Of a stretch of DNA of 64,000 nucleotides, positions 2,495 through 35,240 are shown piece after piece. The DNA lies in contig CACGMS010000001.1 of the NCBI GenBank assembly GCA_902574205.1, forward strand, positions 41,819 through 105,818, written 5' to 3'. The translations under genes were made by a program, and so were the position numbers. Positions within the stretch are counted from its first letter, which is position 1. The number at the start of each line of letters is the position of its first letter. The notes beneath the pieces are model-generated. The model was not told where the DNA came from and searched no databases. It worked only from the letters and a program-made list of their open reading frames with translations. The DNA is from an uncultured Candidatus Hydrogenedens sp. GTDB lineage: Bacteria > Myxococcota > UBA4151.

Positions 2495-2566
2495 AAACCC
2501 CGTGTTTTCGCTGGGAAACGGCTCTGATTTTAGAACGCCAGCGTTTGTTCACAAGGCCAATGAAGG

Positions 2567-15590: not shown

Positions 15591-18188
15591 ATGGGTCCTC
15601 GGCTTCTCATTCTCATGGCTTGGATTGCATCATGCAGTCCCAGCTTGCCCACGATACAAGCCGATGAAGCGCGTTGCGGCGATGCCGTGGTGGACACCAA
15701 CGAAGCCTGCGACGACGGCAACGAGGACAATACGGATTCATGTACAGACCGTTGCGAGTTTGCAGCGTGTGGCGATGGTTATGTGCAGAGGGATGAACGC
15801 TGCGATGACGGGAACTTTAACGATCGAGATGGCTGCACTAATGTGTGCGAACCGGCGCGTTGCGGCGACGCGATCTGGCGGCAGGACCTCAACGCTGAGG
15901 CTGAAGGCTTTGAAGCCTGCGATGATGGGAATCTCGAAGAAAGCGACGGCTGCACGACCTTGTGCGCCCCACCACGCTGCGGCGACGGCATCACCCAAAC
16001 CGATGAGGCCTGCGATGATGGCAACACCATCGACAGCGACGCGTGTCGCAACACCTGCGTTGCTGCCACCTGTGGTGATTCCGTCACTCGGGCCGATGTG
16101 GTCGAGGGTGAAGACGGTTACGAGGCTTGCGACGGCGGCGAGAATTGCAGCGAAGATTGTCGTTTGGTGCTTTGCGGAAACGGCATCGCCGAGCCTGGTG
16201 AAGCCTGCGATGACGGCAATACCATCGACACCGACGCCTGCATCGCTTGCGCGTTAGCGCGCTGCGGCGATGGGCACCTTTATGAGGGCGCGGAGGCCTG
16301 TGACGATGGCAACCTAGATCCGGGCGACTCCTGCAGCGTCGATTGCCGAATCGACGACCATGGCAACACGTTCGACACCGCCACCCCGCTTGCCCTGGTC
16401 AATGGCACCAGCCGCGGCGTGTTCACACCCATCGTCAACGCTCAGATTAACCCGAGCGACGACATCGACCTCTTCGTTTTGACTGCGCCCAGCACGGGGG
16501 TCTATCGCTTCACCACGACGCGCCCTGTAGACGATCCCAGAGGCGACCCGGTTTGCCGCGTGTTCGACGCAGCCTTCAATCTTGCAGGGTTCATGGACGA
16601 TCTTTCTCTGGCTCAGACCCCCAATGATCTGCCCAGCAACTTCGATTGTTCTGTGGAATTGCGTCTGCAGGAAGGACAGCGCGGCTTCTTTGAAGTCGGC
16701 TCCTTTGGCTCGCGCAACGTTGCCTACAACGTTGAAGTGCAAACGCCCTGCGGCAATGGCGTGCTCGATCCGGGCGAGGAATGCGATCCTCAATCGCCGC
16801 AATACAATCCTTTTCGCTGCCGCACGGATTGCCGACTTAGACGCTTGATTTCCCTCGCCGGGAGCACGGGTTGTGCGGTGGTTGATGGCGCCGTTAAGTG
16901 TTGGGGCAGTAATTCAAGTTATTTGCTTGGCGAGAACCCTGAGCGTCACATCACGTGCGCCAAAGACGGGCACGACAGGACGGGGCGGCGATTAGGTAGC
17001 TACAATGTCGATGTGGTCCGATTTCCCGTTGAAGTGATTCCTGCGTCCGAGCGGGTCAAGGACCTCACAAGCTCGGGTCTCGAACAGGTCTGTGCGCTTT
17101 CCGGTGTGACCAATCTGCCACTGTGCTGGGGGCGTCTTCTGGTGGAGAATCTCGGCGGTGGTAGTATATCCGAGGAGGGCCTGAGGCAGTGTCAAGATGA
17201 TGAGCCGCCGCGATGGGAGGGCATCATCCGAGGTGCCTGTCACCCGGAGCCTGTCGTTATGGGTGACTTATACCACAACATCGACTGGGAAGAATCAAGC
17301 GTCCTGGATCGACTGATCGGCATCACGGTGGGCACGAACTCTAAGTGCTTAATCAGCCGGGGCGGTCACGTCTATTGTTCGGGCTATATGCGCTTTGGTT
17401 TGCAAGGCGACCAAATAAGCATGGAGCGACAGATCGCCTCCCAATCGGACTACAACCATTGGCCAGCTCCGTCCTTAGCACGTGAAGCGGTCATGCCCGC
17501 GAACGAAATGGCTGAATATGTTGCGCTTGGGGAATGGTCGGCCTGTGCCCTCCTGGGCGCCAGTCAGCGCCTGGCCTGTTGGGGGAAGAATAACTATGGT
17601 CAAACGGGCTCGGGACGCAGCACCACCGTAGAGGGATGCGAGGGTGTCCCTTGCGAGCCCACCCCGGTCTTGGTCGATGGCGATCTCGGTGAAGTGGTGA
17701 GCTTGAGCGTCGGCCAAAGCCATGGTTGCGCCGTCAATGGTGTGGGTCACGCCTTTTGTTGGGGTTTGAATGCCCACGGTCAAACGGGTAGTCCTTCTGA
17801 CGAGTCCGCGTGCGATGACCTCGGTTGTGTGCGTCGTCCGACTCGGGTTGCAGGCCTTGAGGGCGTGATCGATATCGTCGCGGGTACGCGCCATAGTTGC
17901 GCCCTGACGCAGAACGGCGGTGTCTGGTGTTGGGGCGACAACGCGCTCGGTCAGCTGGGCATGGGGGTACTCGGGGGTGAAGGGCGTGGTCAGCCGGATT
18001 TCCGCGTGGAACCGGTCCGGGTTGGACGCTTAGGCCGTATGGTGGGTTTGGCGGCGGGGCCTGAAAGCAACTGTGCTCGTGCCGCTGACGGCAACATCTT
18101 TTGTTGGGGCGCCAACGGCACGGGACAATTGGGCACCGGTGAATGCACCGAAGCGGAACCCTTTCCCCTTGCCGTCGACCTTCGGTAA
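15591..18188 (+). CDS. Cys-rich repeat / PPC-like / RCC1 beta-propeller lipoprotein (tandem paralog A)
   Basis: The lipobox is IASC. About 7 CGDG/CDDGN units are followed by DDHGNTFDTATPLAL...DIDLFVL, which looks like a pre-peptidase C-terminal domain. A degenerate unit [14 protein letters not shown] follows. The C-terminus has ~7 RCC1-type blades (CWGSN, CWGKNNYGQTGSG, CWGLNAHGQTG, CWGDNALGQLG, CWGANGTGQLG). Confidence 0.88.
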   Translation: MGPRLLILMAWIASCSPSLPTIQADEARCGDAVVDTNEACDDGNEDNTDSCTDRCEFAACGDGYVQRDERCDDGNFNDRDGCTNVCEPARCGDAIWRQDLNAEAEGFEACDDGNLEESDGCTTLCAPPRCGDGITQTDEACDDGNTIDSDACRNTCVAATCGDSVTRADVVEGEDGYEACDGGENCSEDCRLVLCGNGIAEPGEACDDGNTIDTDACIACALARCGDGHLYEGAEACDDGNLDPGDSCSVDCRIDDHGNTFDTATPLALVNGTSRGVFTPIVNAQINPSDDIDLFVLTAPSTGVYRFTTTRPVDDPRGDPVCRVFDAAFNLAGFMDDLSLAQTPNDLPSNFDCSVELRLQEGQRGFFEVGSFGSRNVAYNVEVQTPCGNGVLDPGEECDPQSPQYNPFRCRTDCRLRRLISLAGSTGCAVVDGAVKCWGSNSSYLLGENPERHITCAKDGHDRTGRRLGSYNVDVVRFPVEVIPASERVKDLTSSGLEQVCALSGVTNLPLCWGRLLVENLGGGSISEEGLRQCQDDEPPRWEGIIRGACHPEPVVMGDLYHNIDWEESSVLDRLIGITVGTNSKCLISRGGHVYCSGYMRFGLQGDQISMERQIASQSDYNHWPAPSLAREAVMPANEMAEYVALGEWSACALLGASQRLACWGKNNYGQTGSGRSTTVEGCEGVPCEPTPVLVDGDLGEVVSLSVGQSHGCAVNGVGHAFCWGLNAHGQTGSPSDESACDDLGCVRRPTRVAGLEGVIDIVAGTRHSCALTQNGGVWCWGDNALGQLGMGVLGGEGRGQPDFRVEPVRVGRLGRMVGLAAGPESNCARAADGNIFCWGANGTGQLGTGECTEAEPFPLAVDLR

Positions 18189-18191
18189 ACG

Positions 18192-20840
18192 ATGATGAAG
18201 CCAAAATTGTATGCCGCTCTAATTCGGTCCCTGTTGGCGCTCGGTTTCAGCGCCTGCCTAATGCCGCTGCCCGAGTTGGCAGAAGCCTCTGCGTTTTGTG
18301 GCGATGGCGTGGTGCAGGATGCGGAACGCTGCGATGACGGCAATACGGACAACAGCGACACCTGCACTGAGGCGTGTCTACCCGCCCGATGCGGCGATGG
18401 GTACGTGCAGGCCGACGAAGCCTGCGATGATGGCAATTTTGTGGATCAGGACAGCTGCACCGCCGCCTGTACCCCCGCACGCTGCGGAGACGGTATAAGG
18501 CGCCAGGATCAACCCGGCGACGCCGAGGATTACGAGCATTGCGACGACGGTAATCAAAACGAAAATGATGCGTGTACGAGCTTGTGCGCGCCGCCGCGCT
18601 GCGGCGATGGAATTGTTCAAAACAACGAAGCTTGTGACGACGGTAATACCATCGAAACGGACGCTTGCCGCTCGAACTGTGACGCCGCCCGGTGTGGTGA
18701 TGGGATCATCCATGAGGGGGTGGAGGCTTGTGACGGCGGTGAGGAATGCAGCGAAGCTTGCACTGCCTTAATATGCGGAAATGGTGTCGTCGAACCTGGG
18801 GAAGGTTGCGACGATGGCAACGAGGAGGTGAGCGACGCCTGTGTGGGCTGTCGTCTCGCCCGATGCGGCGATGGTGTCCTTCACGAAGGGGTGGAAGGCT
18901 GCGACGACGGCAACCTTGAGCCGGGTGATGCGTGCAGCGTTGATTGCCGTTTGGATGACCACGGTGATACCTTGAACACCGCAACAACTCTGGTGCTCAA
19001 TCGGGGCACCAATCGTGGCGTGTATCGGCCCATCGACACGGCTCGAATTGCCGATGTCGACGATGTGGATGTCTTTGCGTTAGTGGCACCTGCCCCCGGT
19101 GTTTATGGCTTTCGGGCGCAGCGCAATGGCGCCGCACAAAGCCCCGACCCGCAGTGCCGAGCCATCAACGCCCAAGGCACCTTAGTTGGTTTTAGCGACA
19201 ACCTGGACGATACCAATCTCGATTGTGCGGTGGAGTTGATGCTCGAGGCTGGCGAAACCGGCTATTTCAAAGTCAGCAACGCCGGGGTTGAACCGGTGAA
19301 CTATGCAGTCCTCGTTCAGGCACCCTGCGGTAACAGTGTCGTCGACCCAGGTGAGGAGTGCGATCCGAATGAGCCGGGCTCCAATGGGTTTCGTTGTCGC
19401 GCTGATTGTCGACTTCGACGTCTCTTGAGCTTGGTCGGAAGCACGGGGTGCGCGGCGCTTGACGGCGCCGTCAAGTGTTGGGGCAGCAACGCCGGTTTGC
19501 TGATGGGTCGAAGCATGGAGGCGCGCGGTGTGATTCAATGCAGCAAACAAGGTTACGATGCTGGAGGCGTCGAAACGCAAATTTTTGATGTCAACGTGGC
19601 GCGTTTTCCGGTGACCGTGATCCCGGAGACGGAACGTGTCAAAGACCTGAGCGGCGGTTGGAATGAGAGTCTTTGCGCCTTGTCTGGCGTGTCGAACATG
19701 CCTTTATGTTGGGGGCGACTCTACAAAGAAACGTCCCACGCATGGAGCGTTCATCTCGACCAGATGGGGCAGTGCCAAGATGATCGACCGCGCCAGCATG
19801 TCGATTATACGGTAGGTGCTTGTGTTCCGGAACCCACGATCATGGGTGACGTCAGTGTCAATGGACCCAATTGGGCGAGTTTGCCGGGTAATTGGCGTCC
19901 CTTTGCTTTCGACAACCTCGTGGGCTTGAGCGTGGGTACACGCGCTCGTTGCGTGCTGATGAAGGACGACTCAGGGGAAGAGACCCAAGTCTATTGTTGG
20001 GGCTATTTCAGTTCTGGGCTGCTGGGAACGCAAGGCATCTTGCGTGGCTGTGATCCTGCTATCTTAGCGCACTACAACATACCGACCTGTGATGTTGCGC
20101 GCATCGCCTTCCCGCAACCTCAGCAACGCCATCGCACCGTGATGCCGAACCAAGAATCCGCAGAATACCTGGCTATGGGTACGGAAACCGCATGTGCGGT
20201 TTTGACCGACAGCCAACGCATCGCTTGTTGGGGTCGCAACGACTACGGACAAACAGGGTCTGAGCGTGCCCTGAATCCCAGCCATCTCTGTATGGGTAAA
20301 CCGTGCGAACCGCTTCCTTTTCTTCAGCCCACGGATTTCGGCGATGTGCTCACCATCAGTTTGGGCGCCCAGCACGGCTGCGCAGTGACCTACGCTGGAC
20401 ATATCTACTGCTGGGGGCTTAATGCGAACCAACAAACGGGAGTGCCCTCCGATGCCGCCCTTTGCTTTGGGCAACCCTGCGTGCGTCGACCGACACGCGT
20501 CGGTCAGCACGAACAGATGATGGATGTTGCTGCGGGAGCGCGCCATACCTGCGCCCTGAACAAGCAGGGCGACGTATGGTGTTGGGGCAACAACAGCGCC
20601 GGGCAATTGGGCATGGGCGTCACCGGTGGCATGCGCTACGGCCAATCCCACGACCAACTCCTTGCTGTGCGCGTGGGGCGTTTGGAGCCCGTTGTTGGGC
20701 TGACGGCTGGCGTTGATTCAAACTGTACACGAACTGCCGAGGGGCGGATCTTTTGCTGGGGCGCCAACGCCACCGGTCAACTGGGCACCGGAGCGTGCAC
20801 CGAAGCCGAAGCTTTGCCGGTCGAAGTGCATCTCCAATAA
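18192..20840 (+). CDS. Cys-rich repeat / PPC-like / RCC1 beta-propeller lipoprotein (tandem paralog B)
   Basis: It starts 3 nt after the TAA of paralog A. The lipobox is GFSAC. The architecture is collinear with 15591..18188 ([75 protein letters not shown]). Confidence 0.88.
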
Positions 20841-21089: not shown

Positions 21090-23822
21090 ATGCGCACGTT
21101 CAGGGGGTTCTCGGTCTTGGTGCTGGTTTTGAATATGTCCTGCGGCGAGCAGGTGGCAGTTAGCGAGACGCAAGCGAACTGCGGCAACGGCAGCGTCGAA
21201 ATCGATGAGGCTTGCGATGATGGCAATACGGATAATTCCGATGCGTGCAGCAATGCTTGCGAACTCGCCGTATGTGGTGATGCGGTGACGCGCATGGACC
21301 TCGCTGTTGGCGAAGAAGGGCATGAGGGCTGCGATGACGGCAACGAGATCGATACCGACGGATGCACGACACTGTGCACCGTGGCTCGCTGTGGCGATGG
21401 TTATGTGCGCGCCGATGCATCTGAGGGCAGCGACGATTTTGAAGCCTGTGACGATGGCAATCGAGTGGATACCGATGGCTGCCGCAACGAGTGCCAGGTT
21501 GCTTATTGCGGCGATGGAGTAGTCCGAGATGATTTAGCACTCGATGAAGAAGGCTACGAAGCCTGCGACGACGGTAACGAAATTGAGACCGATCAATGTT
21601 TGAGTGATTGTGCCGTTGCACGCTGCGGTGATGGCGTTGTTGGACCGGGTGAGAGTTGTGATGATGGCAACGATGACCCAACAGATTCTTGCCGCGCCTG
21701 TCAGTTGGCGACTTGCGGTGATGGTGTGATTCAAGAAGGCGAAGTGTGCGATGATGGTAATGCCATCGAAAGTGACGCGTGTTTGAGCACTTGCGCACCG
21801 GCAGCATGCGGCGATGGTGTCGTGTATGAAGGCGTGGAAGACTGCGATGATGGCAACGCGCAGACCACCGATGCGTGCACCAGTGCCTGTCGATTGGCGC
21901 GTTGCGGCGACGGTATTCGGCGCTTAGATTTAGAGCCAGAAGACGATGGTTTTGAAGCCTGCGATGATGGCAACAACGAGGTCGGTGATGGATGTTCGGA
22001 GGTCTGCGCCTTGGAGCGCTGCGGAAATGGTCGCATCGATGCTGGAGAAGCCTGCGATGATGGCAACGCCGTGGATACTGACGGCTGCACGTCTGCTTGT
22101 TTACAGGCGCGTTGCGGCGATGGAATTCGCTATCTAGGCACCGAAGAGTGCGATGACGGCAATCAAGTCGAGACCGATGCGTGTTTGAACAATTGCCTCG
22201 ATGCGCGATGCGGCGACAATGTGGTGCGCCAGGGCGTGGAGGCTTGCGATGATGGCAACCTTGATGCTGGGGATGGCTGCAATGGTGTCTGTCAGACCGA
22301 AGGTTGCGGTAATGGTCGGCTCGATCCCGGGGAAGCCTGCGATGACTCCAACGCACAAGCTGGTGATGGATGCGATGACCAATGTCGACTCGAAATTTGC
22401 GGTAACGGGCGGGTTGATGCCGGCGAAGCCTGTGATGACGGAAACCGTATTGAGACCGATGCCTGCACCAGCGGTTGTTTAGCAGCTCGATGCGGTGATG
22501 GAATTCGTCGGAATGATCTGCAGCCACAGGATCCCGGTTACGAGGTGTGCGATGATGGCAACCAAGTCGATGATGATGCGTGCCGTAACACCTGCGAGAC
22601 CCTTCGCTGCGGCGATGGTGTCGTTGCTCAAGGTATTGAGTCTTGTGACGACGGTAACGCCGATGATTTGGATGCCTGTCGTAATGATTGCACGGTCGCA
22701 CGGTGCGGCGATGGCGTGACGCGTAACGATCTCAATGACGGTCAAGCCGGTTATGAAGTGTGCGATGATGGTAATGCGGAGCAAACAGACAGCTGTTTAA
22801 ATGATTGCTCGTTGGCGTCGTGCGGCGATGGTTTAGTACGCGCCGGAATCGAGGATTGTGATGACGGGAACAATGATCAAAGCGATGCTTGCCTCAATGA
22901 GTGCAGCATGGCGTCGTGCGGCGATGGCGTAACGCGTAACGATCTCAATGAGGGTCAAGCCGACTATGAAGCGTGCGATGACGGCAATATTGAGCAAACA
23001 GACAGCTGCTTAAATGATTGCTCGTTGGCGTCGTGCGGCGACAGCCTTATCCGAGAGGGAGTTGAGGGATGCGACGATGGGAACGCCGATTCGTGGGATG
23101 GGTGCTCGGCGCAATGCCAATTAGAAGGCGGCACTCAGCAGTCGCCGGCGCAAAGTTGTGCAGCGATTTTAGCCGCTCAACCGGGTATCGAGAGTGGTCC
23201 AGCTTGGATTGATCATGATGCAGCAGGCGGTGATTCGGCGATTTATGTGTATTGCGATCAAACGACGGAGCAAGGGGGATGGCTCGATATCGTGCGTACT
23301 TTCCATTTGCAGGGCATCGATCAAAACGCTTACCTGAGTCACTTCTTCTTGGCGAACAACGGTCAAGCGCTAGCAGCCGTCGTGGATTCGAACAATGCGG
23401 GACCGGGTTTAGGCATTCGCAATATGACCGCGAGTTATGACCACACAGAAGGTTTTCATTTGGTAAGTATGGTTCCCTTTTCTAAGGTCCGTACCAATTA
23501 CCGCATGCAAGGCACCGATCAGAACTACCGCTGCAATCACTCCAACTGGGTTCCGCTCAATGGACCCGGCTATGATGGGGGATACGACGGTTACCAAAGC
23601 GCATGTCCGAATGGTAAAACCTGTATTCAAGGTCGCTGCACGTATCTCCGAGACGCGCCGATCTCGGCGAGTTATTCGAACGATAACATCAATTCGGAAA
23701 CGACCTATCTGACGTGGAGCGGCAGTGGCGTGGGGACACAGACCTCAACCGGCTGTGCCCGCGATAATCTCATTCCATTTAACCGCCCAGTGACCTGGTT
23801 CACTCAGTTGCTTATTCGCTAG
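21090..23822 (+). CDS. Cys-rich repeat lipoprotein (19 units) with a C-terminal fibrinogen-like YCDxxxxGGW domain
   Basis: GGAGG lies 7 nt upstream of the ATG. The signal plus lipobox is [19 protein letters not shown] counted 19 CDDGN units. The C-terminal ~225 aa begin [47 protein letters not shown], which resembles fibrinogen C-domain subdomain A. Confidence 0.9.
22704..23041 (+). repeat. Near-identical ~125-bp duplication: 22704-22828 and 22917-23041 (offset 213 bp), including a 32-nt exact run
   Basis: [42 protein letters not shown] aligns with [42 protein letters not shown]. The exact run is ttaaatgattgctcgttggcgtcgtgcggcga. Confidence 0.9.
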
Positions 23823-23924: not shown

Positions 23925-24677
23925 TTGGTGCAGATGCGCTTACTGGTTGTTTTGGTTGTTTTGGTTACCGGTCCAGCGTTGGCAAGTGACCAGCCTGGTC
24001 TCGCCGCATTGAACATCAAGGCTGAACGAGGCGTGGATGCGAGTTTGGCGACACTCATCAGTGAAGCGATTCTGAGTGAACTCAAGGCGAGCGGTCGCTT
24101 TGCTTCGGTTATCGGCAGTTCCGATATGCAAACGATGATCGATATGGAGCAGCAAAAGCAGGCTTTGGGCTGCGACGAGAACACCTGTTTGGCTCAACTC
24201 GGTGGTGCGCTTGGAGTCCCTTATTTACTCAGTGGAAGTTTGGGATCGGTGGGTGGGCAATTTATGCTCAATCTGAAGATCATTCAGGTCGAAGAATCTC
24301 GCGTCGCAGAGCGAAAAACGCATATTTTTGATTCGGAAAAAGCGCTCGTCCGAGGGCTGGAATCGGTTTTGACGGGTTTAGTTTCAGGAGCTTTGAATTC
24401 GGCTGACGGCCAAGCCGAGTCGGTAAAGCAGGTCAGGGTGATGTCGCAGAGTAAAAGACTCGGTCCCTGGGTTGGCGGTGGATTGGCGACGATCGGCACA
24501 GGGTTGGCACTCGGCGGGTATCTCTCTGCACAAGCAGCACAGTCTGATTATGATGCATCGCCAACGGTGGCTCGTAGCCGAGACCTTCAAAGTGCAGTCT
24601 CTTCGGGAAATACGATGATCAGTATTGGCCTTGGATCCGTGGGTGCAGGTATCGCTGCTTTGGTGTGGTTACGATGA
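23925..24677 (+). CDS. Membrane-anchored protein carrying the GC-x4-C / ALGVPYLL module (uncharacterised, CsgG/LpoB/TolB-N-like by pattern only)
   Basis: The signal peptide is MRLLVVLVVLVTGPALA. The module is LISEAILSELKASGRFASVIGSSDMQTMIDMEQQKQALGCDENTCLAQLGGALGVPYLLSGSLGSVGGQFMLNLKIIQVEESRV. The C-terminus has two hydrophobic segments flanking AQSDYD. The start is uncertain among TTG 23925, GTG 23928 and ATG 23934. Confidence 0.8.
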   Translation: MVQMRLLVVLVVLVTGPALASDQPGLAALNIKAERGVDASLATLISEAILSELKASGRFASVIGSSDMQTMIDMEQQKQALGCDENTCLAQLGGALGVPYLLSGSLGSVGGQFMLNLKIIQVEESRVAERKTHIFDSEKALVRGLESVLTGLVSGALNSADGQAESVKQVRVMSQSKRLGPWVGGGLATIGTGLALGGYLSAQAAQSDYDASPTVARSRDLQSAVSSGNTMISIGLGSVGAGIAALVWLR

Positions 24678-25555
24678 AGAGACTGTATGCAGTTGCATGT
24701 GTTCTGGTTGCCTGCGTCGATGCCGATTACAGTGCCGGTGGTCTGCTCGACGAATGTCCGAAAAATAACAACGAGTGCACCGCAGGTTACCAATGCGAAA
24801 ATGGATACTGTACGCCAGAGTCAGAGATGCGAGCCGATAGTGGTGTCGTCACTGATGCTGGCTTCAATGATAGTGGACCCATAATGGATGATGCAGGTCC
24901 GAGTATCCCTCGTGATTGTCAGGCAATCAAAGCCGCTAACCTGGCTGCTGGGAATGGAACCTACACGATTGATCCTGATGGTCCGGGTGGTGAGTCAAGT
25001 CTCCAGGCACTTTGCGATATGACGACTGCCGGTGGGGGTTGGACGCGTGTGATCAATATACGAAACGGTGCAATCACTTGGAATGCATGGAGCGAACGTG
25101 TTGATGTCGAAAACAGCGCTTCGAGTTGGCAGCAAACAACGACTGGACTTGGCATTTCTCGGTTTTCGGACACCCCGGACGGTGAGGACCTCGAATACCT
25201 ATTTTTTGTCGAGAATAGACAAAGAGGAAGCCTCTACAGAGGCGTCAATAAGGGTGCATGGGATCCACGCCTCGGCTCTGAAGAATTTGATGCCTCTTTC
25301 GAGATCCGATCTCTGGATGACACGGATTGGCTGATTTGCGACCAAGCCTTGAACCACGCGCAGGACGACTGGAATTGGTCAATTGCGAGTGATCCGGCAG
25401 GTTCCTGTAACCGGATAGGTGGTGGTGATGCATTTCTACTTCGTGGTGGCGATGAGCACGGTGCCGAAGCAGCTGAACGTTTGTACGGTCTGACGGAATT
25501 TTTTGGGGCTTCACGCTGGATCGCTGTGAGTGTTTACGTGCGGCGAACGCCTTAG
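24674..25555 (+). CDS. Lipoprotein with a fibrinogen-like CDMTTAGGGWT domain
   Basis: The ATG at 24674 overlaps the upstream TGA (24675-24677) as ATGA. The lipobox is MKRLYAVACVLVAC. RDCQAIKAANLAAGNGTYTIDPDGPGGESSLQALCDMTTAGGGWTRV closely matches the ficolin/angiopoietin N-terminal FReD pattern. Confidence 0.85.
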   Translation: MKRLYAVACVLVACVDADYSAGGLLDECPKNNNECTAGYQCENGYCTPESEMRADSGVVTDAGFNDSGPIMDDAGPSIPRDCQAIKAANLAAGNGTYTIDPDGPGGESSLQALCDMTTAGGGWTRVINIRNGAITWNAWSERVDVENSASSWQQTTTGLGISRFSDTPDGEDLEYLFFVENRQRGSLYRGVNKGAWDPRLGSEEFDASFEIRSLDDTDWLICDQALNHAQDDWNWSIASDPAGSCNRIGGGDAFLLRGGDEHGAEAAERLYGLTEFFGASRWIAVSVYVRRTP

Positions 25556-25559
25556 TGGA

Positions 25560-25856
25560 TTAGTTTTTCCCTGATTTCTGCCGACAATCCTTTTGCATCT
25601 TTTTATCTTTGATCGCGCCGCAATAAGAAGGCTTTTTGCGCACAACCGCTAAGCAATAATTACGTTTGTCGGCGTCTTTGATCAGACCGCAAACGGACAT
25701 GCTACGCTCGCATATTCCGCGGCATAGATTGCGGTCATCGACATCTTTTATCTTTGTGCATTCAGAGCACTTATTCGTTGATTTAGCTTCTGCTTGAGTA
25801 GGCATCATGAGGAATAAGCCGAGGCCAAGCGAGGCATAAAGAAGAAGCGTTCTCAT
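25560..25856 (-). CDS. Small secreted Cys/Lys-rich protein with three C-x-x-IKD-x-D-x-R/K-N/D-x-C repeats
   Basis: 98 aa. The signal peptide is MRTLLLYASLGLGLFLMMPTQAEA. The repeats are CTKIKDVDDRNLC, CGLIKDADKRNYC and CGAIKDKKMQKDC. GGAGA lies upstream of the ATG. Confidence 0.65.
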   Translation of the reverse strand: MRTLLLYASLGLGLFLMMPTQAEAKSTNKCSECTKIKDVDDRNLCRGICERSMSVCGLIKDADKRNYCLAVVRKKPSYCGAIKDKKMQKDCRQKSGKN

Positions 25857-27390: not shown

Positions 27391-29880
27391 ATGCGACCCT
27401 CGGCGACTAGAACGACTCTTTTGGTGATCAGCATGTGTGGGTCGATGGCTTGCGGTGAGCAGGTGGTCGTTCGCGAGACTGAGGCACGATGTGGTAATGG
27501 GCAAATCGATGCGGACGAGCAATGCGACGATGGCAATACACGCAACGAGGATGGCTGCACTGCGGCCTGTGTTGTCGCCGTCTGCGGTGATGGGGTTATC
27601 CGAACCGATTTAGGCCCTGATGACGTCGCCTTTGAAGGTTGTGACGACGGAAATTCAGCCGACGATGACGGGTGCACGAGCGCTTGTGTGCTCGCGGTCT
27701 GTGGGGACGGGATTGTTCGCACTGATATTGAGGCTGGCGCGCCCGGCTATGAAGCCTGTGATGACGCGAATGCGAGCGATCATGACGGCTGTTTGACCGG
27801 CTGTGTGTCAGCGAGCTGCGGTGATGGGGTCCGTCGTGAGGACTTAGCCGAAGATGACCTTGGTTACGAAGCTTGTGATGACGGCAACGAAGACGATACG
27901 GACGCCTGCCTCACCACGTGCTTAGAAGCGCGCTGCGGCGATGGGGTCGTCGGTCCTGGCGAGGGCTGTGATGATGCCAATGAGGACCCTACAGATGAGT
28001 GCAACGCGTGCCAACCGGCTGGCTGCGGCGACGGTGCGGTGCAAGACGGCGAGCAATGCGATGATGGGAACGCCATTGATACCGATGCCTGCTTGAGCAC
28101 GTGCGCAACTGCTCGTTGCGGTGATGGTGTAGTTTGGCAGGGCGAAGAAGTATGTGATGACGGTAACGCCAACGCCCAAGATGCGTGTACATTGCAATGC
28201 CAAGAGGCGGTTTGTGGCGATGGTATCCGTCGTCTCGATGTGCAGCCTGAAGACCCGAATTTTGAAGAGTGTGATGATGCCAATGCTGAACTGGGCGACG
28301 GCTGTTCGGATCGGTGTTTGACCGAACGTTGTGGCAATGGTCGTCTCGATCATGGCGAGGCCTGCGATGACGGAAACCAGGCGAACACCGATGCGTGCAC
28401 GAATGCGTGTGAATCGGCTCGTTGCGGCGATGGGGTAAGACACATCGGTCAAGAGGGCTGCGATGATGGTAACGCCGAAGTGGGCGATGGTTGCGATGCA
28501 CAGTGTCGGCTTGAAGGTTGTGGAAATAGTCGCCTAGATCCTGGCGAGGCGTGTGACGATGGGAACCGTGAGGCGGGTGACGGGTGCAACTTAGCTTGTC
28601 AGGTTGAGGTGTGCGGTAACGGTCGACGAGACCTTGGCGAAGCCTGCGACGATGGCAATCAGGTCGATACGGATGCTTGCTTGAGTGATTGTGTGCTCGC
28701 TCGTTGCGGTGATGGTCAACGCTTTGAAGCACAAGAAGCTTGTGACGACGGAAACCCATTCAATCAGGACCATTGTACGAATGATTGTCTAATCGCTCGA
28801 TGCGGCGACGGAATTACGCGCAATGATCTGGCTCAGGATGCTGAGGGTTATGAGGCTTGCGATGACGGCAACCAAGACCTTGGAGATGGATGCGATAACC
28901 AGTGTCGCCTTGAGGTGTGCGGGAACGGTCGACTCGATGAAGGTGAAGACTGTGACGATGGCAACCGTATTGAGACTGACGCATGCACCAGTGGTTGCTT
29001 TACGGCTCGCTGTGGGGACGGCATTCGACGACAGGACTTGGACCAAGGACAAGAAGGTTATGAAGCCTGCGATGACGGGAATCAGGAGCAAACCGATGGC
29101 TGCATCAACGATTGCGTGGCTGCGCGGTGCGGTGACGGACAAGTGCAGGTGGGTGTTGAGGGCTGCGATGATGGAAACCAGATCCCCAACGATGGTTGCG
29201 CAAACGATTGCACGCTGGGGCCTGATGGAAGCTCACCAGCGCAAGCGAGCACGACGTGTAAGGTGCTCAAATCAGAGTTCCCTCAGCTGCCGTCAGATGC
29301 TTATTGGCTCGATCCCGACGGCGCCGGTGGCGATGATCCGTTTCAAGCCTATTGCGACATGACGACCGACGGTGGCGGGTGGACGTACTGCTACACCACG
29401 AGTCGCTACGTGCATCTTTCAAGTCGTAACAGCGGCGGTACCTTTGGACAGGACGGCTACCAAGCGAATTGTCGAAAAGTGCCGTTTCACGAAGTGATTT
29501 ATCTGCGACACAGTGACGATGCCAATGCGATGTTCCGGAGGAACAACGGACAGGATGCGACCATCGAAACGCTCGGGTTTAATGTGGCGGGTAACGTGCT
29601 CGGGCAATGGACTGGGCGCGGGGCGGCATCACCCAATTGGTCTTATCAACTCAACATCTGCGACAATACGTGGATGCAGGTCGGTTTGATGATGACGGGC
29701 ATAACGAACAATTGCGCCAAACAATGCAACAACTGGTGCGGCGATACCTCGAGTCCTTATTATCGAACGAACGGTGAAGGGAACGGTGTTGCAAACTATA
29801 ATGCTTATCACGGCGTCGCTTTCGCACAGAACGGTCACCGCAACCTTGACCATCAACAGATGAGCGTGGGAATCCGCTAA
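27391..29880 (+). CDS. Cys-rich repeat lipoprotein (17 units) with a C-terminal fibrinogen-like YCDMTTDGGGWT domain
   Basis: The lipobox is MCGSMAC. The N-terminal ~330 aa are collinear with 21090..23822. The C-terminus begins TCKVLKSEFPQLPSDAYWLDPDGAGGDDPFQAYCDMTTDGGGWTY. Confidence 0.9.
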   Translation: MRPSATRTTLLVISMCGSMACGEQVVVRETEARCGNGQIDADEQCDDGNTRNEDGCTAACVVAVCGDGVIRTDLGPDDVAFEGCDDGNSADDDGCTSACVLAVCGDGIVRTDIEAGAPGYEACDDANASDHDGCLTGCVSASCGDGVRREDLAEDDLGYEACDDGNEDDTDACLTTCLEARCGDGVVGPGEGCDDANEDPTDECNACQPAGCGDGAVQDGEQCDDGNAIDTDACLSTCATARCGDGVVWQGEEVCDDGNANAQDACTLQCQEAVCGDGIRRLDVQPEDPNFEECDDANAELGDGCSDRCLTERCGNGRLDHGEACDDGNQANTDACTNACESARCGDGVRHIGQEGCDDGNAEVGDGCDAQCRLEGCGNSRLDPGEACDDGNREAGDGCNLACQVEVCGNGRRDLGEACDDGNQVDTDACLSDCVLARCGDGQRFEAQEACDDGNPFNQDHCTNDCLIARCGDGITRNDLAQDAEGYEACDDGNQDLGDGCDNQCRLEVCGNGRLDEGEDCDDGNRIETDACTSGCFTARCGDGIRRQDLDQGQEGYEACDDGNQEQTDGCINDCVAARCGDGQVQVGVEGCDDGNQIPNDGCANDCTLGPDGSSPAQASTTCKVLKSEFPQLPSDAYWLDPDGAGGDDPFQAYCDMTTDGGGWTYCYTTSRYVHLSSRNSGGTFGQDGYQANCRKVPFHEVIYLRHSDDANAMFRRNNGQDATIETLGFNVAGNVLGQWTGRGAASPNWSYQLNICDNTWMQVGLMMTGITNNCAKQCNNWCGDTSSPYYRTNGEGNGVANYNAYHGVAFAQNGHRNLDHQQMSVGIR

Positions 29881-32999: not shown

Positions 33000-35240
33000 T
33001 CATCGCCGCTCAACCAAGACCCGATCGACTCTCATGTAGCTGATATCATGCCAGTAGAGACGGGTCTCGAGTCGATGCCCTTCTCTTCCTTGGTTATTAA
33101 AATTAATATTAAAGTCTTGGTAGGTAAACGGTGCGTTGAAGTCTGAGCGACGAATGTTCTCTATGGCGAAAATCTCACCCGTATCGGCGTCAAAGAGGTC
33201 CATGGTGGCGACGATCTCCGGACGGTCGTTCACGACATCGATCATGATTCGATACGATGCAGAGAGCTCACCGACCGACCAATCCTGAGCATAGGGCCCA
33301 TAAATTAGATGACCCTCTTGATCAGGCTCGACGGAGGCGGACCAGCCATCTTCTTCGGCGCGACCGAGACCGTGCTGCAAATCGCGCTCAGCCTCGTAGA
33401 GCCATTCAAAAGCGATGGGCTGTTGCGCGTCATGATGGATCGTTAATCGCCTCCGAGCCAGCGGGCTCTGTGTCCCGCTCGCCACTCCGCTGTGGATCAG
33501 CCCGCCGCCCATCTCGATACCGCCATGAACCACGCACAGGCAAAAGCCGCTGTCGTCATTATCGCCCGGTCCAAAGTTGCCGAGCGTAAAGGATCGACCG
33601 TTGGCGTAGGTATTGAAGTTACTCAGTGAAACCGGCTGCCCAGCCCAGCCCAAAACCACGTCATGGTTTGGTACATCGTCCGGGAGGCGCGTCCATTGAC
33701 CGGGCGTCAAGTTGATGCGCCGGCCTGACCAATTGACGCCGACCTCTCGCTCGGTGACGCGGACGTAGCGATTCAAGCGCTTGAGCGGGTGAGCGGCTGG
33801 CCACTCGGTCATCACAAAGCCGCCAATAAAGCTGTAGGGTCCATCAAAGGTAGGATTGTCTTGCGGGTTACGCACCTGAACGAGTCGATCCACATCATGG
33901 CTGGTAGCGTCGAGTTCGTAGCCCACGCGCAGGTAGACCGGTCGTCGAACGCCATCATCGAATAAGTAGTCCTCGTGACAATTGCGTCCGGTGGAGCTCC
34001 CTCCAAAATCACCCTGCTTGGTGAGTCGACCTTCATAGACAATCCGTAGTGTGGTCTCGGTTGAGCTGACTTCGATCGGTTCAAAGCGCTGACTCCAGCC
34101 TGGTGAGCCTTCATTGCAAGCGCTCCAGGTCGGGATATCGGGGTCGGTATAGTGGGGGGCTTCAGCGAGACTGTATTGCGCACAAAAGGAGTTCTCGTCG
34201 GCGCAACTTGGGTTGTCATCTTCTTCAGGGACGGCGTTGGGGAACTCGATGTGTTCGGCGCCTTTATAGCCAGCAGGCCAGCGCCCTTGTCCGCGCTCGC
34301 CGACGACGAGGGCGTTGACCGGACGGTTGCCATCGAGCAGAACGAAGTCAAGGGATTCAAGGTTGCCATTGAGCGCCCAGAGCCCATTCATTTTCCCATA
34401 AAAACCGGTCTCATCGAGCCACGCCATGTACCAGCGACCGACAAAGACCCGGTCCTGGCTATTCGGTCCTGTTTGGTCATCGAGACCGAGCCCCTCAAGA
34501 GCGCGTCGAATCAGCCCATCAACGTGATCTGGCGGTGCGCCAGAGTAGTCATGGATTCGAGGTAAACCCTCGATGATGCGGGTGGGTAGCAAGTTGGCGA
34601 GACAGGAATTGCTGCACGCATCGTCATCCACCTGGTTGCCGTCGTCGCATTGTTCGACGCCGGCGTGGATGAGACCGTCTCCGCACCGGGCGAGGACGCA
34701 GCCGCTCAAGCAATCGTCGGTGTCGACGCTGTTCCCATCGTCGCAGGCTTCAAATCCGTCGTCAGTCGCGCCGAGGTCGGCTCGTACCACGCCGTCACCG
34801 CATATCGCTGGTGCACAATCATTACGGCATGCGTCTGCATCGTCTCGATTGCCGTCGTCACAGTGTTCGAAATCGCTGTCGCCCTCGGAGCGGTCGAGAC
34901 GGACAATGCCATCACCGCAACGGCTGGTTGTGCATCGATTAGAACATCCGTCCGTCTCGCGGGTATTGCCATCGTCACAAGCCTCAAACTCTTCGCTGTC
35001 TGGTGCTTGATCGATACGCGTCACTCCGTCACCGCATCGAGCCCGTTCGCAAGCGTTGGTACAACGATCGGTATTGTCGGCGTTGGCGTCGTCGCATGCT
35101 TCACCGGTCTCGAGTGTTCCGTTCCCGCACGAGGCTTCTCGGTCACGGATGATGACTTGTTCTGAGCAAGCCGATATCATCCACGAAGTGATGAATAGAG
35201 CGATCAAAAAGAAGGGTCGTTGCACGATATCTCCAGCCAC
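33000..35240 (-). CDS. Cys-rich repeat lipoprotein (5 units) with a ~530-aa orphan C-terminal domain
   Basis: It has a GTG start and the lipobox MISAC. The post-lipobox SEQVIIRDREASCGNG parallels 21090 and 27391. After the 5 CDDGN units I recognised no family. Confidence 0.85.
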   Translation of the reverse strand: MAGDIVQRPFFLIALFITSWMISACSEQVIIRDREASCGNGTLETGEACDDANADNTDRCTNACERARCGDGVTRIDQAPDSEEFEACDDGNTRETDGCSNRCTTSRCGDGIVRLDRSEGDSDFEHCDDGNRDDADACRNDCAPAICGDGVVRADLGATDDGFEACDDGNSVDTDDCLSGCVLARCGDGLIHAGVEQCDDGNQVDDDACSNSCLANLLPTRIIEGLPRIHDYSGAPPDHVDGLIRRALEGLGLDDQTGPNSQDRVFVGRWYMAWLDETGFYGKMNGLWALNGNLESLDFVLLDGNRPVNALVVGERGQGRWPAGYKGAEHIEFPNAVPEEDDNPSCADENSFCAQYSLAEAPHYTDPDIPTWSACNEGSPGWSQRFEPIEVSSTETTLRIVYEGRLTKQGDFGGSSTGRNCHEDYLFDDGVRRPVYLRVGYELDATSHDVDRLVQVRNPQDNPTFDGPYSFIGGFVMTEWPAAHPLKRLNRYVRVTEREVGVNWSGRRINLTPGQWTRLPDDVPNHDVVLGWAGQPVSLSNFNTYANGRSFTLGNFGPGDNDDSGFCLCVVHGGIEMGGGLIHSGVASGTQSPLARRRLTIHHDAQQPIAFEWLYEAERDLQHGLGRAEEDGWSASVEPDQEGHLIYGPYAQDWSVGELSASYRIMIDVVNDRPEIVATMDLFDADTGEIFAIENIRRSDFNAPFTYQDFNINFNNQGREGHRLETRLYWHDISYMRVDRVLVERR

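What the first reader, a model, noticed from the sequence alone, without database searches (positions are those of the whole stretch)
23925..25555. ATGA-coupled gene pair: uncharacterised GC-x4-C/ALGVPYLL module protein followed by a fibrinogen-like lipoprotein
Seen in sequence:
- The stop of 23925..24677 (TGA 24675-24677) and the start of the next gene (ATG 24674-24676) share the tetranucleotide ATGA, a classic translational-coupling arrangement.
- The upstream product has a signal peptide and a ~100-aa module with a conserved Cys pair and the ALGVPYLL..G..G....NLK.I motif. It ends in a C-terminal hydrophobic hairpin around AQSDYD.
- The downstream product is a lipoprotein with a CDMTTAGGGWT head.
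- The same module is ATGA-coupled to an RCC1 lipoprotein at 45366..47350 and fused to RCC1 repeats in 39282..41072.
Inference: the module protein is a dedicated membrane-anchored partner (anchor, chaperone or export adaptor) for head-domain lipoproteins. I could not assign the module to a characterised family from memory. It only loosely recalls CsgG/LpoB/TolB-N-type alpha/beta lipoprotein modules.
Basis: partly seen in the sequence, partly recalled or inferred. Interest (0 to 1): 0.78.

Follow-up and report, generated by a model that had tools for sequence, protein, structure and literature searches.

The report
Envelope protein coupled to lipoprotein gene
A small exported protein with a TolB/LpoB-type domain and a glycine-rich helical tail is encoded with its stop codon overlapping the start of a lipoprotein gene, and this two-gene unit recurs 6-10 times per genome in a group of marine Myxococcota; it looks like an undescribed "base plus head" system for lipoproteins with adhesin-like heads, but its function is untested.

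Summary
Gene A (23934..24677) has a Sec signal peptide, an α/β domain and a C-terminal Gly-rich helical hairpin. AlphaFold plus Foldseek place the domain in the TolB-N/LpoB/PelC/CsgG fold. Gene B (24674..25555) starts inside A's stop codon (ATGA). It encodes a lipoprotein with a bacterial fibrinogen-like GGGWT domain.

The window holds four module genes, not three.
- In 38 related loci from seven MAGs, 30 have a 4-nt or 1-nt stop/start overlap with a downstream gene.
- About 35 of the 38 downstream products start with a signal peptide ending in Cys.
- The heads of those lipoproteins vary: DUF4215 stalks, RCC1 or Kelch propellers, fibrinogen/COLFI, laminin-G, FGE-sulfatase.
- No other neighbouring gene is conserved.

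The module-plus-hairpin family is large (7,141 50%-identity clusters at E≤1e-10) and matches no curated family. Six distant members lack the coupled lipoprotein, so the pairing is a trait of one subclade.

Best reading: a non-covalent complex in which A is the membrane-embedded base and B the head. Physical interaction, which membrane is involved and the function were not tested. It is a new variant of envelope protein–lipoprotein partnerships and moderately interesting.

The parts
23934..24677 (+). Gene A: module protein, 247 aa. An alternative TTG start at 23925 is less likely.
   Evidence: ORF. Identical 247-aa protein P0001. 96 homologues, mostly about 250 aa. AlphaFold mean pLDDT 82.7.
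23934..23984 (+). Sec-type signal peptide MRLLVVLVVLVTGPALA. It has no lipobox Cys.
   Evidence: Read from the translation. The N-terminal hydrophobic segment is conserved in the family alignment.
23997..24329 (+). TolB-N/LpoB/PelC/CsgG-type α/β domain (aa 22-132). It contains the invariant block EQQK..LGC(80)xxxxC(85)LAxLGGALGVPYL. Cys codons are at 24171-24173 and 24186-24188.
   Evidence: pLDDT above 90 over most of this range. Foldseek hits: GNA1162 1.2e-5, TolB 1.6e-5, LpoB 2.4e-5, PelC 2.8e-5, CsgG 7e-5. Sub-threshold Pfam hits to FlgO, LpoB and DUF3280. Invariant columns.
24330..24461 (+). Helix (aa 135-161) followed by a low-complexity linker (aa 162-176).
   Evidence: AlphaFold secondary structure, with pLDDT below 50 for aa 163-173. 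Length and sequence vary across the family.
24462..24671 (+). C-terminal Gly-rich helical hairpin (aa 177-246). The two hydrophobic arms are WVGGGLATIGTGLALGGYL and MISIGLGSVGAGIAALVWL. They are joined by a polar acidic cap, AQSDYD...SSGN.
   Evidence: AlphaFold helices H177-208 and H212-246. Hydrophobicity, Gly content and charge analysis in 195 family members and comparison with E. coli SlyB. No Pfam Gly-zipper match.
24674..24677 (+). ATGA junction where the stop of A overlaps the start of B.
   Evidence: Read. The same NTGA overlap occurs in 27 of 38 related loci and a TGATG-type overlap in 3 more.
24674..25555 (+). Gene B: lipoprotein, 293 aa. Order of parts: lipobox LVAC (Cys14, 24713-24715); four-Cys mini-domain CPKNNNECTAGYQCENGYC (24755-24811); D/G/A-rich spacer; GGGWT fibrinogen-like sub-domain (aa 82-126, 24917-25051); about 165 aa with no assignment.
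   Evidence: Translation. NF040941 at 1e-16. PF00147 at 9.4e-6, positions 1-61 only. Only 6 homologues. AlphaFold failed.
46565..47350 (-). Second single-module gene, 261 aa, with a long-loop hairpin (ARQDYDHA...).
   Evidence: Translation. Aligned in A1. Its cluster members are named 'TolB-like protein' by JGI.
45366..46568 (-). RCC1-propeller lipoprotein whose ATG (46568-46566) overlaps the stop (46567-46565) of the module gene.
   Evidence: Junction read. RCC1_2 at 1.7e-22. Orthologous cassettes L017 and L020.
39282..41072 (-). Fusion protein: module + PEGA/CarboxypepD_reg + RCC1 propeller. It has no C-terminal hairpin. The start may be ATG 41027.
   Evidence: Pfam: LpoB 4.8e-4, DUF3280 2e-3, PEGA 3.9e-7, RCC1_2 1.7e-55. 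NCBIfam LpoB 3.5e-3. Start region read.
35375..36844 (+). Two-module protein, 489 aa. It has a signal peptide, a polybasic tract (SRRKRKRRRKRRKRR), a P/K/E/A-rich spacer, two modules and the same C-terminal hairpin. It is not followed by a lipoprotein gene.
   Evidence: Translation. DUF3280 2.6e-4 and FlgO 1.8e-3. Orthologue L035 likewise has no coupled lipoprotein.

Best explanation
The pair is one copy of a self-contained two-gene envelope cassette that builds a non-covalent 'base + head' complex.

Gene A makes the base.
- It is a Sec-exported, non-lipidated protein.
- Its periplasmic TolB-N/LpoB/PelC-type domain carries an invariant surface (EQQK..LGCxxxxC..LGGALGVP).
- A flexible linker joins that domain to a Gly-rich helical hairpin that embeds the protein in a membrane.

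Gene B makes the head.
- It is translated by termination-reinitiation at ATGA.
- It is a lipoprotein with a lipid anchor, a short tether or Cys-knot, a flexible D/A/G-rich spacer and a ligand-binding head. Here the head is a fibrinogen-like GGGWT domain. In paralogues it is a DUF4215 stalk, an RCC1 or Kelch propeller, laminin-G or FGE-sulfatase.

How I think it works:
- The variable 3' part of A (the hairpin) and the variable N-terminal tether of B sit side by side in the same membrane and pair specifically.
- The invariant face of A's α/β domain docks every paralogous cassette onto one common envelope component.
- The cell thereby anchors and presents a repertoire of 6-10 or more different adhesin- or lectin-like lipoproteins.

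Shown: the architecture, the fold, the coupling, its conservation, the paralogy, head swapping, and one natural fusion.
Inferred: the physical interaction, the membrane involved, the common docking partner, and the adhesin role.
For: Junctions and fold:
- ATGA junctions at both in-window pairs.
- Fold of A's domain. Relatives pass the Pfam LpoB, DUF3280 and TolB_N thresholds.

Survey of related loci:
- 43 related loci come from seven MAGs, with 6-10 per Myxococcota MAG.
- 30 of 38 have a 4-nt or 1-nt overlap with the downstream gene.
- About 35 of 38 downstream products begin with a signal peptide ending in Cys.
- Both features are enriched against other neighbour pairs, p about 1e-9 to 1e-10.
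- No other conserved neighbour exists, so the cassette is self-contained.

Heads and inheritance:
- Heads are binding-type domains and differ between cassettes.
- The window cassette and L001 share module and tether, but their heads are unrelated.
- Orthologous cassettes are inherited as units across genomes.
- Hairpin type tracks lipoprotein tether type (Mantel rho 0.51, p=0.0005), while the N-domain is uniformly conserved.

Fusion:
- 39282..41072 joins module and RCC1 head covalently through PEGA domains. It lacks both the hairpin and the tether, as expected if hairpin plus lipid tether normally form the joint.
Against: - No interaction was computed or measured.
- The hairpin-tether correlation is confounded, because the two coding regions are contiguous in the DNA and the cassettes share ancestry.
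- Six distant module-plus-hairpin proteins work without a coupled lipoprotein. So do the two-module proteins 35375..36844 and L035. The base therefore has a function that does not need a co-encoded head.
- Several similar DUF4215, RCC1 and GGGWT lipoproteins in the window (15591, 18192, 21090, 27391) have no module gene next to them.
- The membrane is undetermined. The arms are only marginally hydrophobic (median ΔG about +3.9 and +2.1; KD 1.39 and 1.69). K/R residues lie on the periplasmic side and the cap is acidic, which does not fit an ordinary inner-membrane hairpin.
- Only one fusion example was seen.
Confidence: 0.5

Rival explanations
1. Gene A is a dedicated export or surface-display device rather than a passive base. 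Like its fold relatives CsgG, PelC, PqiC and FlgO/FlgP, it would oligomerise into a ring at the outer membrane. The Gly-rich hairpins would pack into a helical palisade or pore, as in VirB10 antennae, Wza or SlyB rings. The lipoprotein's flexible D/A/G-rich spacer would thread through it, leaving the lipid anchor and Cys-knot on the periplasmic side and the head outside the cell.
For: - The Foldseek neighbours are dominated by ring-forming outer-membrane lipoproteins: the PelC dodecamer, CsgG, the DUF330/PqiC-type protein XCC0632 (2iqi) and the Vibrio LPHT ring.
- The hairpin arms are Gly-rich (about 20%) and marginally hydrophobic. They fall between the outer-membrane Gly-zipper helices of E. 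coli SlyB and true inner-membrane helices.
- The charge pattern is basic on the periplasmic flank (+1.9) and acidic at the cap (-2.4). This violates the positive-inside rule for an inner-membrane hairpin.
- Cassette lipoproteins have long low-complexity spacers between knot and head.
- Outer-membrane Gly-zipper helical hairpins are documented (bioRxiv 10.64898/2025.12.22.696046, found).
Against: - No oligomer was modelled.
- The hairpin matches no Gly-zipper family.
- A is not lipidated, so no known route would carry it to the outer membrane.
- A Sec-exported hairpin whose second arm has KD about 1.7-1.9 could simply stay in the inner membrane.
- Translational coupling suggests similar amounts of A and B, which is awkward for a many-to-one ring.
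- Distant family members lack any cargo gene.
Confidence: 0.13
2. Gene A is an inner-membrane-anchored trans-envelope tether or sensor partner, an inverted version of LpoB. The hairpin would sit in the inner membrane. The linker would let the α/β domain reach an outer-membrane lipoprotein, mechanically coupling it to the wall or inner membrane. Alternatively it would relay ligand binding inward through the conserved cap (AQxxYD...AN), as in RcsF-IgaA or NlpE-CpxA.
For: - A has a Sec signal plus C-terminal hydrophobic helices, the second arm reaching KD≥1.6 in 61% of members.
- It has disordered linkers of 25-60 aa. In about 10% of sampled members there is also an N-terminal polybasic + P/A/E/K extension reminiscent of periplasm-spanning spacers.
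- The cap motif on the far side of the membrane is conserved.
- The relative L043 ends in a single C-terminal hydrophobic helix after a PEGA domain and still has a coupled lipoprotein.
Against: - The charge bias is opposite to that expected for a cytoplasmic cap.
- The cap is only about 25-50 aa, and no kinase, sigma or anti-sigma gene is conserved nearby.
- No shared upstream motif suggests a regulon.
Confidence: 0.15
3. There is co-expression only. A is a general envelope protein whose ancestral role is that of the wider module-plus-hairpin family. In this clade it happens to sit upstream of lipoprotein genes because cassettes duplicated as units. A and B would not bind each other.
For: - Distant family members and the two-module proteins function without an adjacent lipoprotein.
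- Adjacency within a few related genomes can be inherited rather than selected. Most loci come from five MAGs.
- The N-domain shows no covariation with the lipoprotein.
Against: - The overlap and the gene order are kept across paralogues whose module domains are only about 30-50% identical and whose heads were exchanged.
- The coupled arrangement is also present in a Bdellovibrionales MAG (L043).
- Module and RCC1 head are fused in 39282..41072.
- Enrichment against other neighbour pairs in the same loci is strong.
Confidence: 0.17
4. The pair is a toxin-immunity pair. B would be a polymorphic lipoprotein toxin like the myxobacterial SitA proteins, and A its immunity protein.
For: - The system consists of lipoproteins with variable C-terminal domains in many paralogous two-gene loci in Myxococcota.
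- SitA lipoprotein toxin families with adjacent immunity genes exist (PMC12077181).
Against: - The heads are lectin, propeller and stalk domains, with no toxin domain found.
- A's main domain is nearly invariant between cassettes instead of diversifying with B.
- A is exported and lies upstream. A is periplasmic or membrane-bound, with no cytoplasmic domain.
- The 'DUF2380' named in the SitA6 literature is pfam09533, not PF11684.
Confidence: 0.03

Closest known systems
LpoB / TolB N-terminal domain / DUF3280 (PF11684) / FlgO (the TolB_N-like α/β superfamily, which also includes PelC, CsgG, GNA1162, DUF330/PqiC-type proteins and HpaA)
   Same: - The α/β fold is the same (Foldseek E 1e-5 to 1e-3).
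- There is weak sequence similarity, and closer relatives pass the Pfam thresholds.
- The location is periplasmic.
- These domains act as protein-protein docking modules at the envelope. Many of them partner with or are lipoproteins, and many form rings.
   Different: - Gene A is not a lipoprotein. It is held by a C-terminal Gly-rich helical hairpin rather than an N-terminal lipid.
- It has its own invariant EQQK..LGCxxxxC..LGGALGVP block.
- It has no β-propeller (unlike TolB) and no transmembrane β-hairpins (unlike CsgG).
- It is not in a pel, curli or flagellar operon.
- It occurs in 6-10 paralogues per genome, each translationally coupled to a different lipoprotein.
Glycine-zipper 2TM outer-membrane lipoproteins (SlyB, YfgH)
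   Same: - Both have two adjacent Gly-rich, marginally hydrophobic helices forming a hairpin in an exported protein.
- SlyB's helices score ΔG +4.4 and +8.4 on the same scale, against family medians of +3.9 and +2.1.
   Different: - No sequence match to the Gly-zipper families was found.
- Gly content is lower (0.2 against 0.32-0.37).
- It is at the C-terminus of a non-lipidated protein.
Myxococcus TraA/TraB outer-membrane-exchange receptor pair (my own knowledge; traAB is mentioned in PMC3721248, listed)
   Same: - Both are found in Myxococcota.
- Both have a variable cell-surface head on a myxobacterial Cys-rich repeat stalk, co-encoded with a conserved envelope partner.
- Polymorphism is concentrated in the head.
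   Different: - TraA uses a MYXO-CTERM tag, not a lipobox.
- TraB is an OmpA-domain protein unrelated to the module.
- traAB is a single locus, not a multi-copy cassette, and the gene order is reversed.
Slam - surface lipoprotein gene pairs of Neisseria (my own knowledge)
   Same: A dedicated envelope protein is encoded next to the lipoprotein it serves, and the cargo heads vary.
   Different: Slam is a TPR + DUF560 β-barrel protein of about 500 aa. Gene A has no β-barrel, and no surface exposure of B has been shown.
Trans-envelope pairs of an outer-membrane lipoprotein with an inner-membrane protein: LpoB-PBP1B, RcsF-IgaA, NlpE-CpxA (my own knowledge)
   Same: A lipoprotein pairs with a membrane-anchored partner across or along the periplasm, and long disordered linkers are present.
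   Different: Those pairs are single-copy and are not translationally coupled cassettes. Here the LpoB-like domain sits on the non-lipoprotein partner.

Membership tests
LpoB (Pfam PF13036 / TIGR02722) | HMM score above the curated cut-off | tested here: not met
   - Gene A scores 12.9 bits against a cut-off of 22.3.
- 39282..41072 scores 20.5 against 22.3, and TIGR02722 scores 17.4 against 110.55.
- A four-module relative, P0144, does pass at 42.9 bits.
LpoB (Pfam PF13036 / TIGR02722) | Same α/β fold as the LpoB C-terminal domain | tested here: met
   Foldseek hits 4q6z at E=2.4e-5, 4q6l at 4.3e-5 and 2mii at 6.5e-4, using a model with domain pLDDT above 90.
LpoB (Pfam PF13036 / TIGR02722) | Outer-membrane lipoprotein with an N-terminal lipobox Cys and a long N-terminal disordered linker | tested here: not met
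   The signal peptide ends ALA|SD with no Cys. The same holds across the family alignment.
LpoB (Pfam PF13036 / TIGR02722) | Binds and activates PBP1B through the UB2H domain | not testable with these tools
   This needs biochemistry.
TolB | N-terminal α/β domain followed by a six-bladed β-propeller, encoded in a tol-pal operon | tested here: not met
   Only the N-domain fold matches (4r40, 4pwz, 7mx5). Gene A has no propeller and no tol-pal neighbours.
CsgG / PelC ring lipoproteins | Lipidated N-terminus; oligomeric ring (9-mer or 12-mer); curli or pel operon context; for CsgG, transmembrane β-hairpins inserted in the fold | tested here: not met
   - There is no lipobox.
- The model has no inserted β-hairpins.
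- There are no csg or pel neighbours.
- Oligomeric state could not be tested.
DUF3280 (Pfam PF11684) | HMM score above the gathering cut-off (30.1 bits) | tested here: not met
   - Gene A scores 12.9 bits.
- 35375..36844 scores 21.8 and 39282..41072 scores 18.9.
- Relatives P0144, P0194 and P0245 pass at 41.1, 30.8 and 33.9 bits.
- The module is a divergent sister of this family.
Glycine zipper 2TM domain families (SlyB / Rick_17kDa type) | HMM match of the hairpin to a Gly-zipper model | tested here: not met
   None of 26 hairpins matched a Gly-zipper family at E≤10. A profile search against PDB gave only noise.
Bacterial lipoprotein (gene B) | Signal peptide ending in a lipobox [LVI][ASTVI][GAS]C | tested here: met
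   - Gene B starts MKRLYAVACVLVAC, giving LVAC.
- A Cys-terminated signal peptide is present in about 35 of 38 downstream genes.
- Lipidation itself was not tested.
Bacterial fibrinogen-like GGGWT domain (NCBIfam NF040941) / fibrinogen-related domain (PF00147) | HMM score above the cut-off | tested here: met
   NF040941 scores 60.7 bits against 30. PF00147 scores 26 bits against 22, but covers profile positions 1-61 of 221 only.
Bacterial fibrinogen-like GGGWT domain (NCBIfam NF040941) / fibrinogen-related domain (PF00147) | Complete FReD fold, including the ligand-binding P sub-domain | tested here: inconclusive
   The AlphaFold model of B had mean pLDDT 35.3 from a 9-sequence alignment, so no fold search was run.

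The most novel reading that the evidence does not exclude
The module-plus-hairpin proteins are a new kind of lipoprotein surface-display device. A ring of TolB-N/PelC-like domains sits under the outer membrane. Its C-terminal Gly-rich helical hairpins pack into an α-helical outer-membrane collar or pore. The flexible spacer of the cognate lipoprotein threads through it, so the adhesin head is outside while the lipid anchor and Cys-knot stay inside. Each paralogous cassette would be a private exporter-anchor for one head.
Probability: 0.1. Interest if true: 0.85.

Novelty: new variant of a known kind. Interest (0 to 1): 0.6.

Why it matters
How diderm bacteria other than Bacteroidota, spirochaetes and Neisseria anchor, sort and display large lipoproteins is poorly understood. 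It is also unclear how predatory or particle-attached marine Myxococcota present their many 'eukaryote-like' adhesion domains (RCC1, fibrinogen-like, laminin-G, Cys-rich stalks).

This work defines a concrete, compact two-gene unit.
- Its parts are clearly delimited: an invariant docking face, a variable hairpin, a variable tether and an exchangeable head.
- It recurs many times per genome.
- It belongs to a protein family with thousands of uncharacterised members (7,141 50%-identity clusters at E≤1e-10) and no curated model.

That makes the partnership directly testable by co-purification, fractionation and multimer modelling. It also gives annotators a handle on a large block of 'hypothetical' envelope proteins.

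If the hairpin turns out to be an outer-membrane element, it would add a non-lipidated, helical outer-membrane anchor to a short list of known ones.

Tried and rejected
- **Curated family assignment of A.** Pfam and NCBIfam give only sub-threshold hits. A sequence search of PDB gives nothing meaningful.
- **Structure of B.** The AlphaFold model failed at pLDDT 35, so I ran no fold search and make no claim beyond the GGGWT sub-domain.
- **Hairpin as a known Gly-zipper.** There is no Pfam or PDB support.
- **Membrane assignment from hydrophobicity.** The result is inconclusive. Values lie between E. coli SlyB helices and the helices of a polytopic permease in the window. The Kyte-Doolittle values agree qualitatively.
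- **Promoter and terminator scan around the pair.** Nothing above the shuffled expectation.
- **Shared upstream motif across 32 cassettes.** None found.
- **Third conserved gene near the cassettes.** None found.
- **Gene conversion or homogenisation of the N-domain within genomes.** Not seen.
- **Covariation as evidence of contact.** Hairpin and tether are correlated. I discount this because the two coding regions are contiguous and the cassettes share ancestry.
- **Toxin-immunity reading.** Rejected. The 'DUF2380' in the myxobacterial SitA6 papers is pfam09533, unrelated to PF11684.
- **Mentions of 'TolB-like' in Myxococcus papers.** These refer to a β-propeller protein, TwnR.
- **Profile search with the module-only alignment in the word-indexed database.** It returned only short fragments and was uninformative.
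- **Source contig of the window.** It could not be retrieved by exact look-up.
- **Literature searches.** None found a description of this cassette.


Full report
**What is at the locus**

The window is 56% G+C. The closest relatives of the module gene lie in marine Myxococcota/Myxococcales MAGs.

Gene A is best placed at 23934..24677, not at the TTG 23925 that the ORF lister reports. Three things support this. The identical database protein P0001 is 247 aa. Homologues start MR... An AAGGGGA lies 11 nt upstream of ATG 23934.

Its stop, TGA 24675-24677, overlaps ATG 24674-24676 of gene B (24674..25555). A second pair on the minus strand has the same ATGA: ATG 46568-46566 and TGA 46567-46565.

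**Gene A anatomy**

The translation shows these parts:
- a Sec-type signal peptide, MRLLVVLVVLVTGPALA|SD, with no lipobox Cys;
- a conserved domain of about 115 aa;
- a variable linker;
- two Gly-rich hydrophobic segments separated by AQSDYD...SSGN.

With a 37-sequence alignment, AlphaFold gives mean pLDDT 82.7.
- The domain (aa 22-132) exceeds 90 and has the order β-α-β-α-α-β-β-β.
- A helix spans aa 135-161.
- A disordered stretch spans aa 163-173.
- A long helical hairpin spans H177-208 and H212-246.

Foldseek against PDB gives these top hits:
- Neisseria GNA1162 (1.2e-5);
- the N-terminal domain of TolB (1.6e-5);
- LpoB (2.4e-5);
- the PelC dodecamer (2.8e-5);
- the DUF330 protein XCC0632 (4.3e-5);
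- CsgG (7e-5);
- the Vibrio LPHT flagellar ring (2.7e-4).

Sequence models see the domain only weakly.
- Gene A gives FlgO 0.045, LpoB 0.11 and DUF3280 0.14.
- The other window copies score somewhat better.
- More distant relatives pass the Pfam thresholds for LpoB, DUF3280 or TolB_N.

It has its own invariant block, E72-Q-Q-K..G-C80-x4-C85-L-A-x-L-G-G-A-L-G-V-P.

**Gene B**

The product begins MKRLYAVACVLVAC, giving lipobox LVAC with Cys14. A four-Cys mini-domain follows (CPKNNNECTAGYQCENGYC), then a D/G/A-rich spacer.

After the spacer comes a domain that matches NCBIfam NF040941, 'fibrinogen-like YCDxxxxGGGW', at 1e-16. It also matches the first 61 positions of Pfam Fibrinogen_C. The last 165 or so residues have no assignment.

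Only six homologues exist in the 5.8-billion-protein collection. The AlphaFold model failed at pLDDT 35. 'Fibrinogen-like' is therefore established only for the GGGWT sub-domain.

**Other copies in the window**

- 46565..47350 is a single-module protein followed by the RCC1 lipoprotein 45366..46568.
- 39282..41072 is a fusion of module + PEGA + RCC1 without the hairpin.
No lipoprotein gene follows it.

**Is the pairing general?**

A pattern scan of one genome per species found 43 loci:
- 10, 8, 10, 7 and 6 loci in five marine Myxococcota MAGs;
- one locus in a Pseudomonadota MAG;
- one locus in a Bdellovibrionales MAG.

These counts are lower bounds, because the scan needs exact peptide patterns.

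Of the 38 loci with downstream DNA:
- 27 have an NTGA four-base overlap;
- 3 have a one-base overlap;
- 5 have a start within 33 nt.

The three exceptions are a frameshifted copy (L008, whose orthologue L009 is intact), the two-module gene L035, and the Pseudomonadota locus L041.

About 35 of the 38 downstream products start with a short signal peptide ending in Cys.

I applied the same mechanical tests to every other same-strand neighbour pair in these loci and the window:
- overlaps: 29/36 for module genes against 39/166 for others (p=2e-10);
- a strict lipobox heuristic: 23/36 against 22/166 (p=2e-9).

All-against-all clustering of ORFs found no third conserved gene. No shared upstream motif was found either.

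**Heads**

Pfam on 37 downstream lipoproteins gives:
- DUF4215 myxobacterial Cys-rich repeats in 15;
- RCC1 propellers in 10;
- Fibrinogen_C or COLFI in 6;
- Laminin_G_3 in 4;
- FGE-sulfatase in 2;
- Kelch in 1.

These are binding or scaffold domains, not toxins. FReD domains are known to recognise acetylated ligands (for example FIBCD1, PMC3908420, found). A lectin or adhesin role is an inference.

**How the cassette evolves**

Nearest-neighbour analysis shows that orthologous cassettes are inherited as units across genomes.

The window cassette's closest relative, L001, shares module (0.69) and tether (0.38), but the rest of the lipoprotein is unrelated (0.03). That is a head swap.

L028 has an N-domain like L032/L039 (0.85), but its hairpin and tether are like L002.

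Two cassette classes appear:
- short-cap hairpins (AQxxYD...AN) paired with lipoproteins that carry the Cys-knot;
- long-cap hairpins paired with knot-less lipoproteins (CLPIS..HPL[DE], ..DNPxDP..).

Hairpin similarity correlates with tether similarity (rho 0.51, Mantel p=0.0005). The N-domain correlates with nothing. This correlation is expected from DNA contiguity and shared ancestry, so it is at most weak evidence of contact.

**Family size and limits of the pairing**

An exhaustive HMM search of 1.84 billion cluster representatives finds 13,280 proteins at E≤1e-3, 7,141 at E≤1e-10 and 812 at E≤1e-30. One-, two- and four-module forms occur. PEGA and caspase fusions also occur.

Six distant members keep the module, and five of them keep a C-terminal hydrophobic helix pair. 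None has an overlapping downstream lipoprotein gene (P0084, P0085, P0086, P0087, P0092, P0095). The coupling therefore characterises a subclade. Module-plus-hairpin proteins must have a function that does not require a co-encoded head.

**Which membrane?**

In 195 family members:
- the 15 residues before the first hydrophobic arm carry net charge +1.9;
- the cap carries net charge -2.4;
- Gly makes up about 20% of the arms.

The KD medians are 1.39 and 1.69.

For comparison:
- the outer-membrane Gly-zipper helices of E. coli SlyB give +4.4 and +8.4 (KD 1.51 and 0.73; Gly 0.32-0.37);
- the ten best helices of the window's permease range from -2.5 to +4.5.

With a periplasmic N-domain, an inner-membrane hairpin would put the acidic cap in the cytoplasm, which goes against the positive-inside rule. 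Hydrophobicity alone does not exclude the inner membrane. No Gly-zipper family matches the hairpin. I leave the membrane undecided.

**Interpretation**

The most economical reading is a non-covalent base + head complex, which I hold at confidence about 0.5. A supplies a conserved docking domain and a membrane-embedded hairpin. B supplies a lipid-anchored, exchangeable head. Translational coupling sets their proportions.

The natural fusion 39282..41072 supports this. PEGA domains there replace both the hairpin and the lipid tether, which suggests that the hairpin and tether normally form the joint.

The alternatives are:
- a ring-forming export or display device modelled on the fold's relatives PelC, CsgG, PqiC and FlgP (about 0.13);
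- an inner-membrane trans-envelope tether or sensor (about 0.15);
- mere co-expression (about 0.17);
- toxin-immunity (about 0.03).

**Novelty**

No Pfam or NCBIfam model covers the family. Six literature searches found no description of the cassette.

The fold is known, and so is the general idea of an envelope protein partnered with a lipoprotein. New are:
- the non-lipidated module with a Gly-rich helical tail;
- its obligate translational coupling to lipoproteins;
- its expansion into a multi-copy repertoire.

I rate it a new variant of a known kind, with interest 0.6.

Noticed in passing
window 35375..36844 (+); also L004, L012, L018, L019, L021, L024-L026, L028, L032, L033, L036, L039, L042: A subset of module proteins (23 of 226 sampled) carries an almost pure K/R tract of 12-25 residues (for example SRRKRKRRRKRRKRR). 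It lies 10-25 aa after the signal peptide and is followed by a P/A/E/K-rich spacer before the module. A long polybasic run in an exported protein is unusual, and its role is unknown. Candidates are binding of the membrane, LPS or peptidoglycan, or a topology determinant.
   Followed up: partly
window 239..2494, 3734..7564, 15591..18188, 18192..20840, 21090..23822, 27391..29880, 33000..35240, 61659..62513: The window is packed with large secreted or lipoproteins built from DUF4215 (myxobacterial Cys-rich) repeats and capped by RCC1 propellers or GGGWT/COLFI-like heads. They carry the same heads as the cassette lipoproteins, but most have no adjacent module gene.
   Followed up: partly
window 60089..61717 (-): This protein has a collagen triple-helix repeat ([10 protein letters not shown]...) followed by a proprotein-convertase P-domain: Collagen 3e-7, P_proprotein 4.5e-18.
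   Followed up: partly
window 25560..25856 (-): A small (98 aa) secreted Cys-rich protein with a repeated C..IKD.D.RN.C motif lies convergent to gene B, with its stop 4 nt from B's stop. It has no Pfam hit.
   Followed up: no
window 2567..3598 (+): A putative lipoprotein with a perfect (DAGTS)n repeat and no Pfam match. The same D-A-G-rich composition forms the spacers of the cassette lipoproteins.
   Followed up: no
L028 (NZRT01000067.1) 266..4542: This cassette looks chimeric. Its module N-domain is 0.85 similar to L032/L039, but its hairpin and lipoprotein tether are closest to the L002 group. This suggests recombination within the linker of gene A.
   Followed up: partly
L008 (JBDQPD010000114.1) about 6046..6600, compared with L009: The lipoprotein gene downstream of the module is interrupted after about 96 codons in L008 but intact (547 aa) in the orthologous L009. 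This is either a pseudogene or an assembly frameshift.
   Followed up: no
P0280 (513 aa) and P0199, P0245, P0265, P0087: Distant family members fuse the module to a caspase (Peptidase_C14) domain or to PEGA domains. P0087 is followed by a gene whose product resembles a histidine kinase (my reading of the translation; no domain search was run) rather than a lipoprotein.
   Followed up: partly
window 12439..13248 (+) and 61659..62513 (-): Further metazoan-type extracellular modules occur in secreted proteins of this window: cEGF and teneurin-like EGF; thrombospondin type 3 repeat + DUF7107.
   Followed up: no
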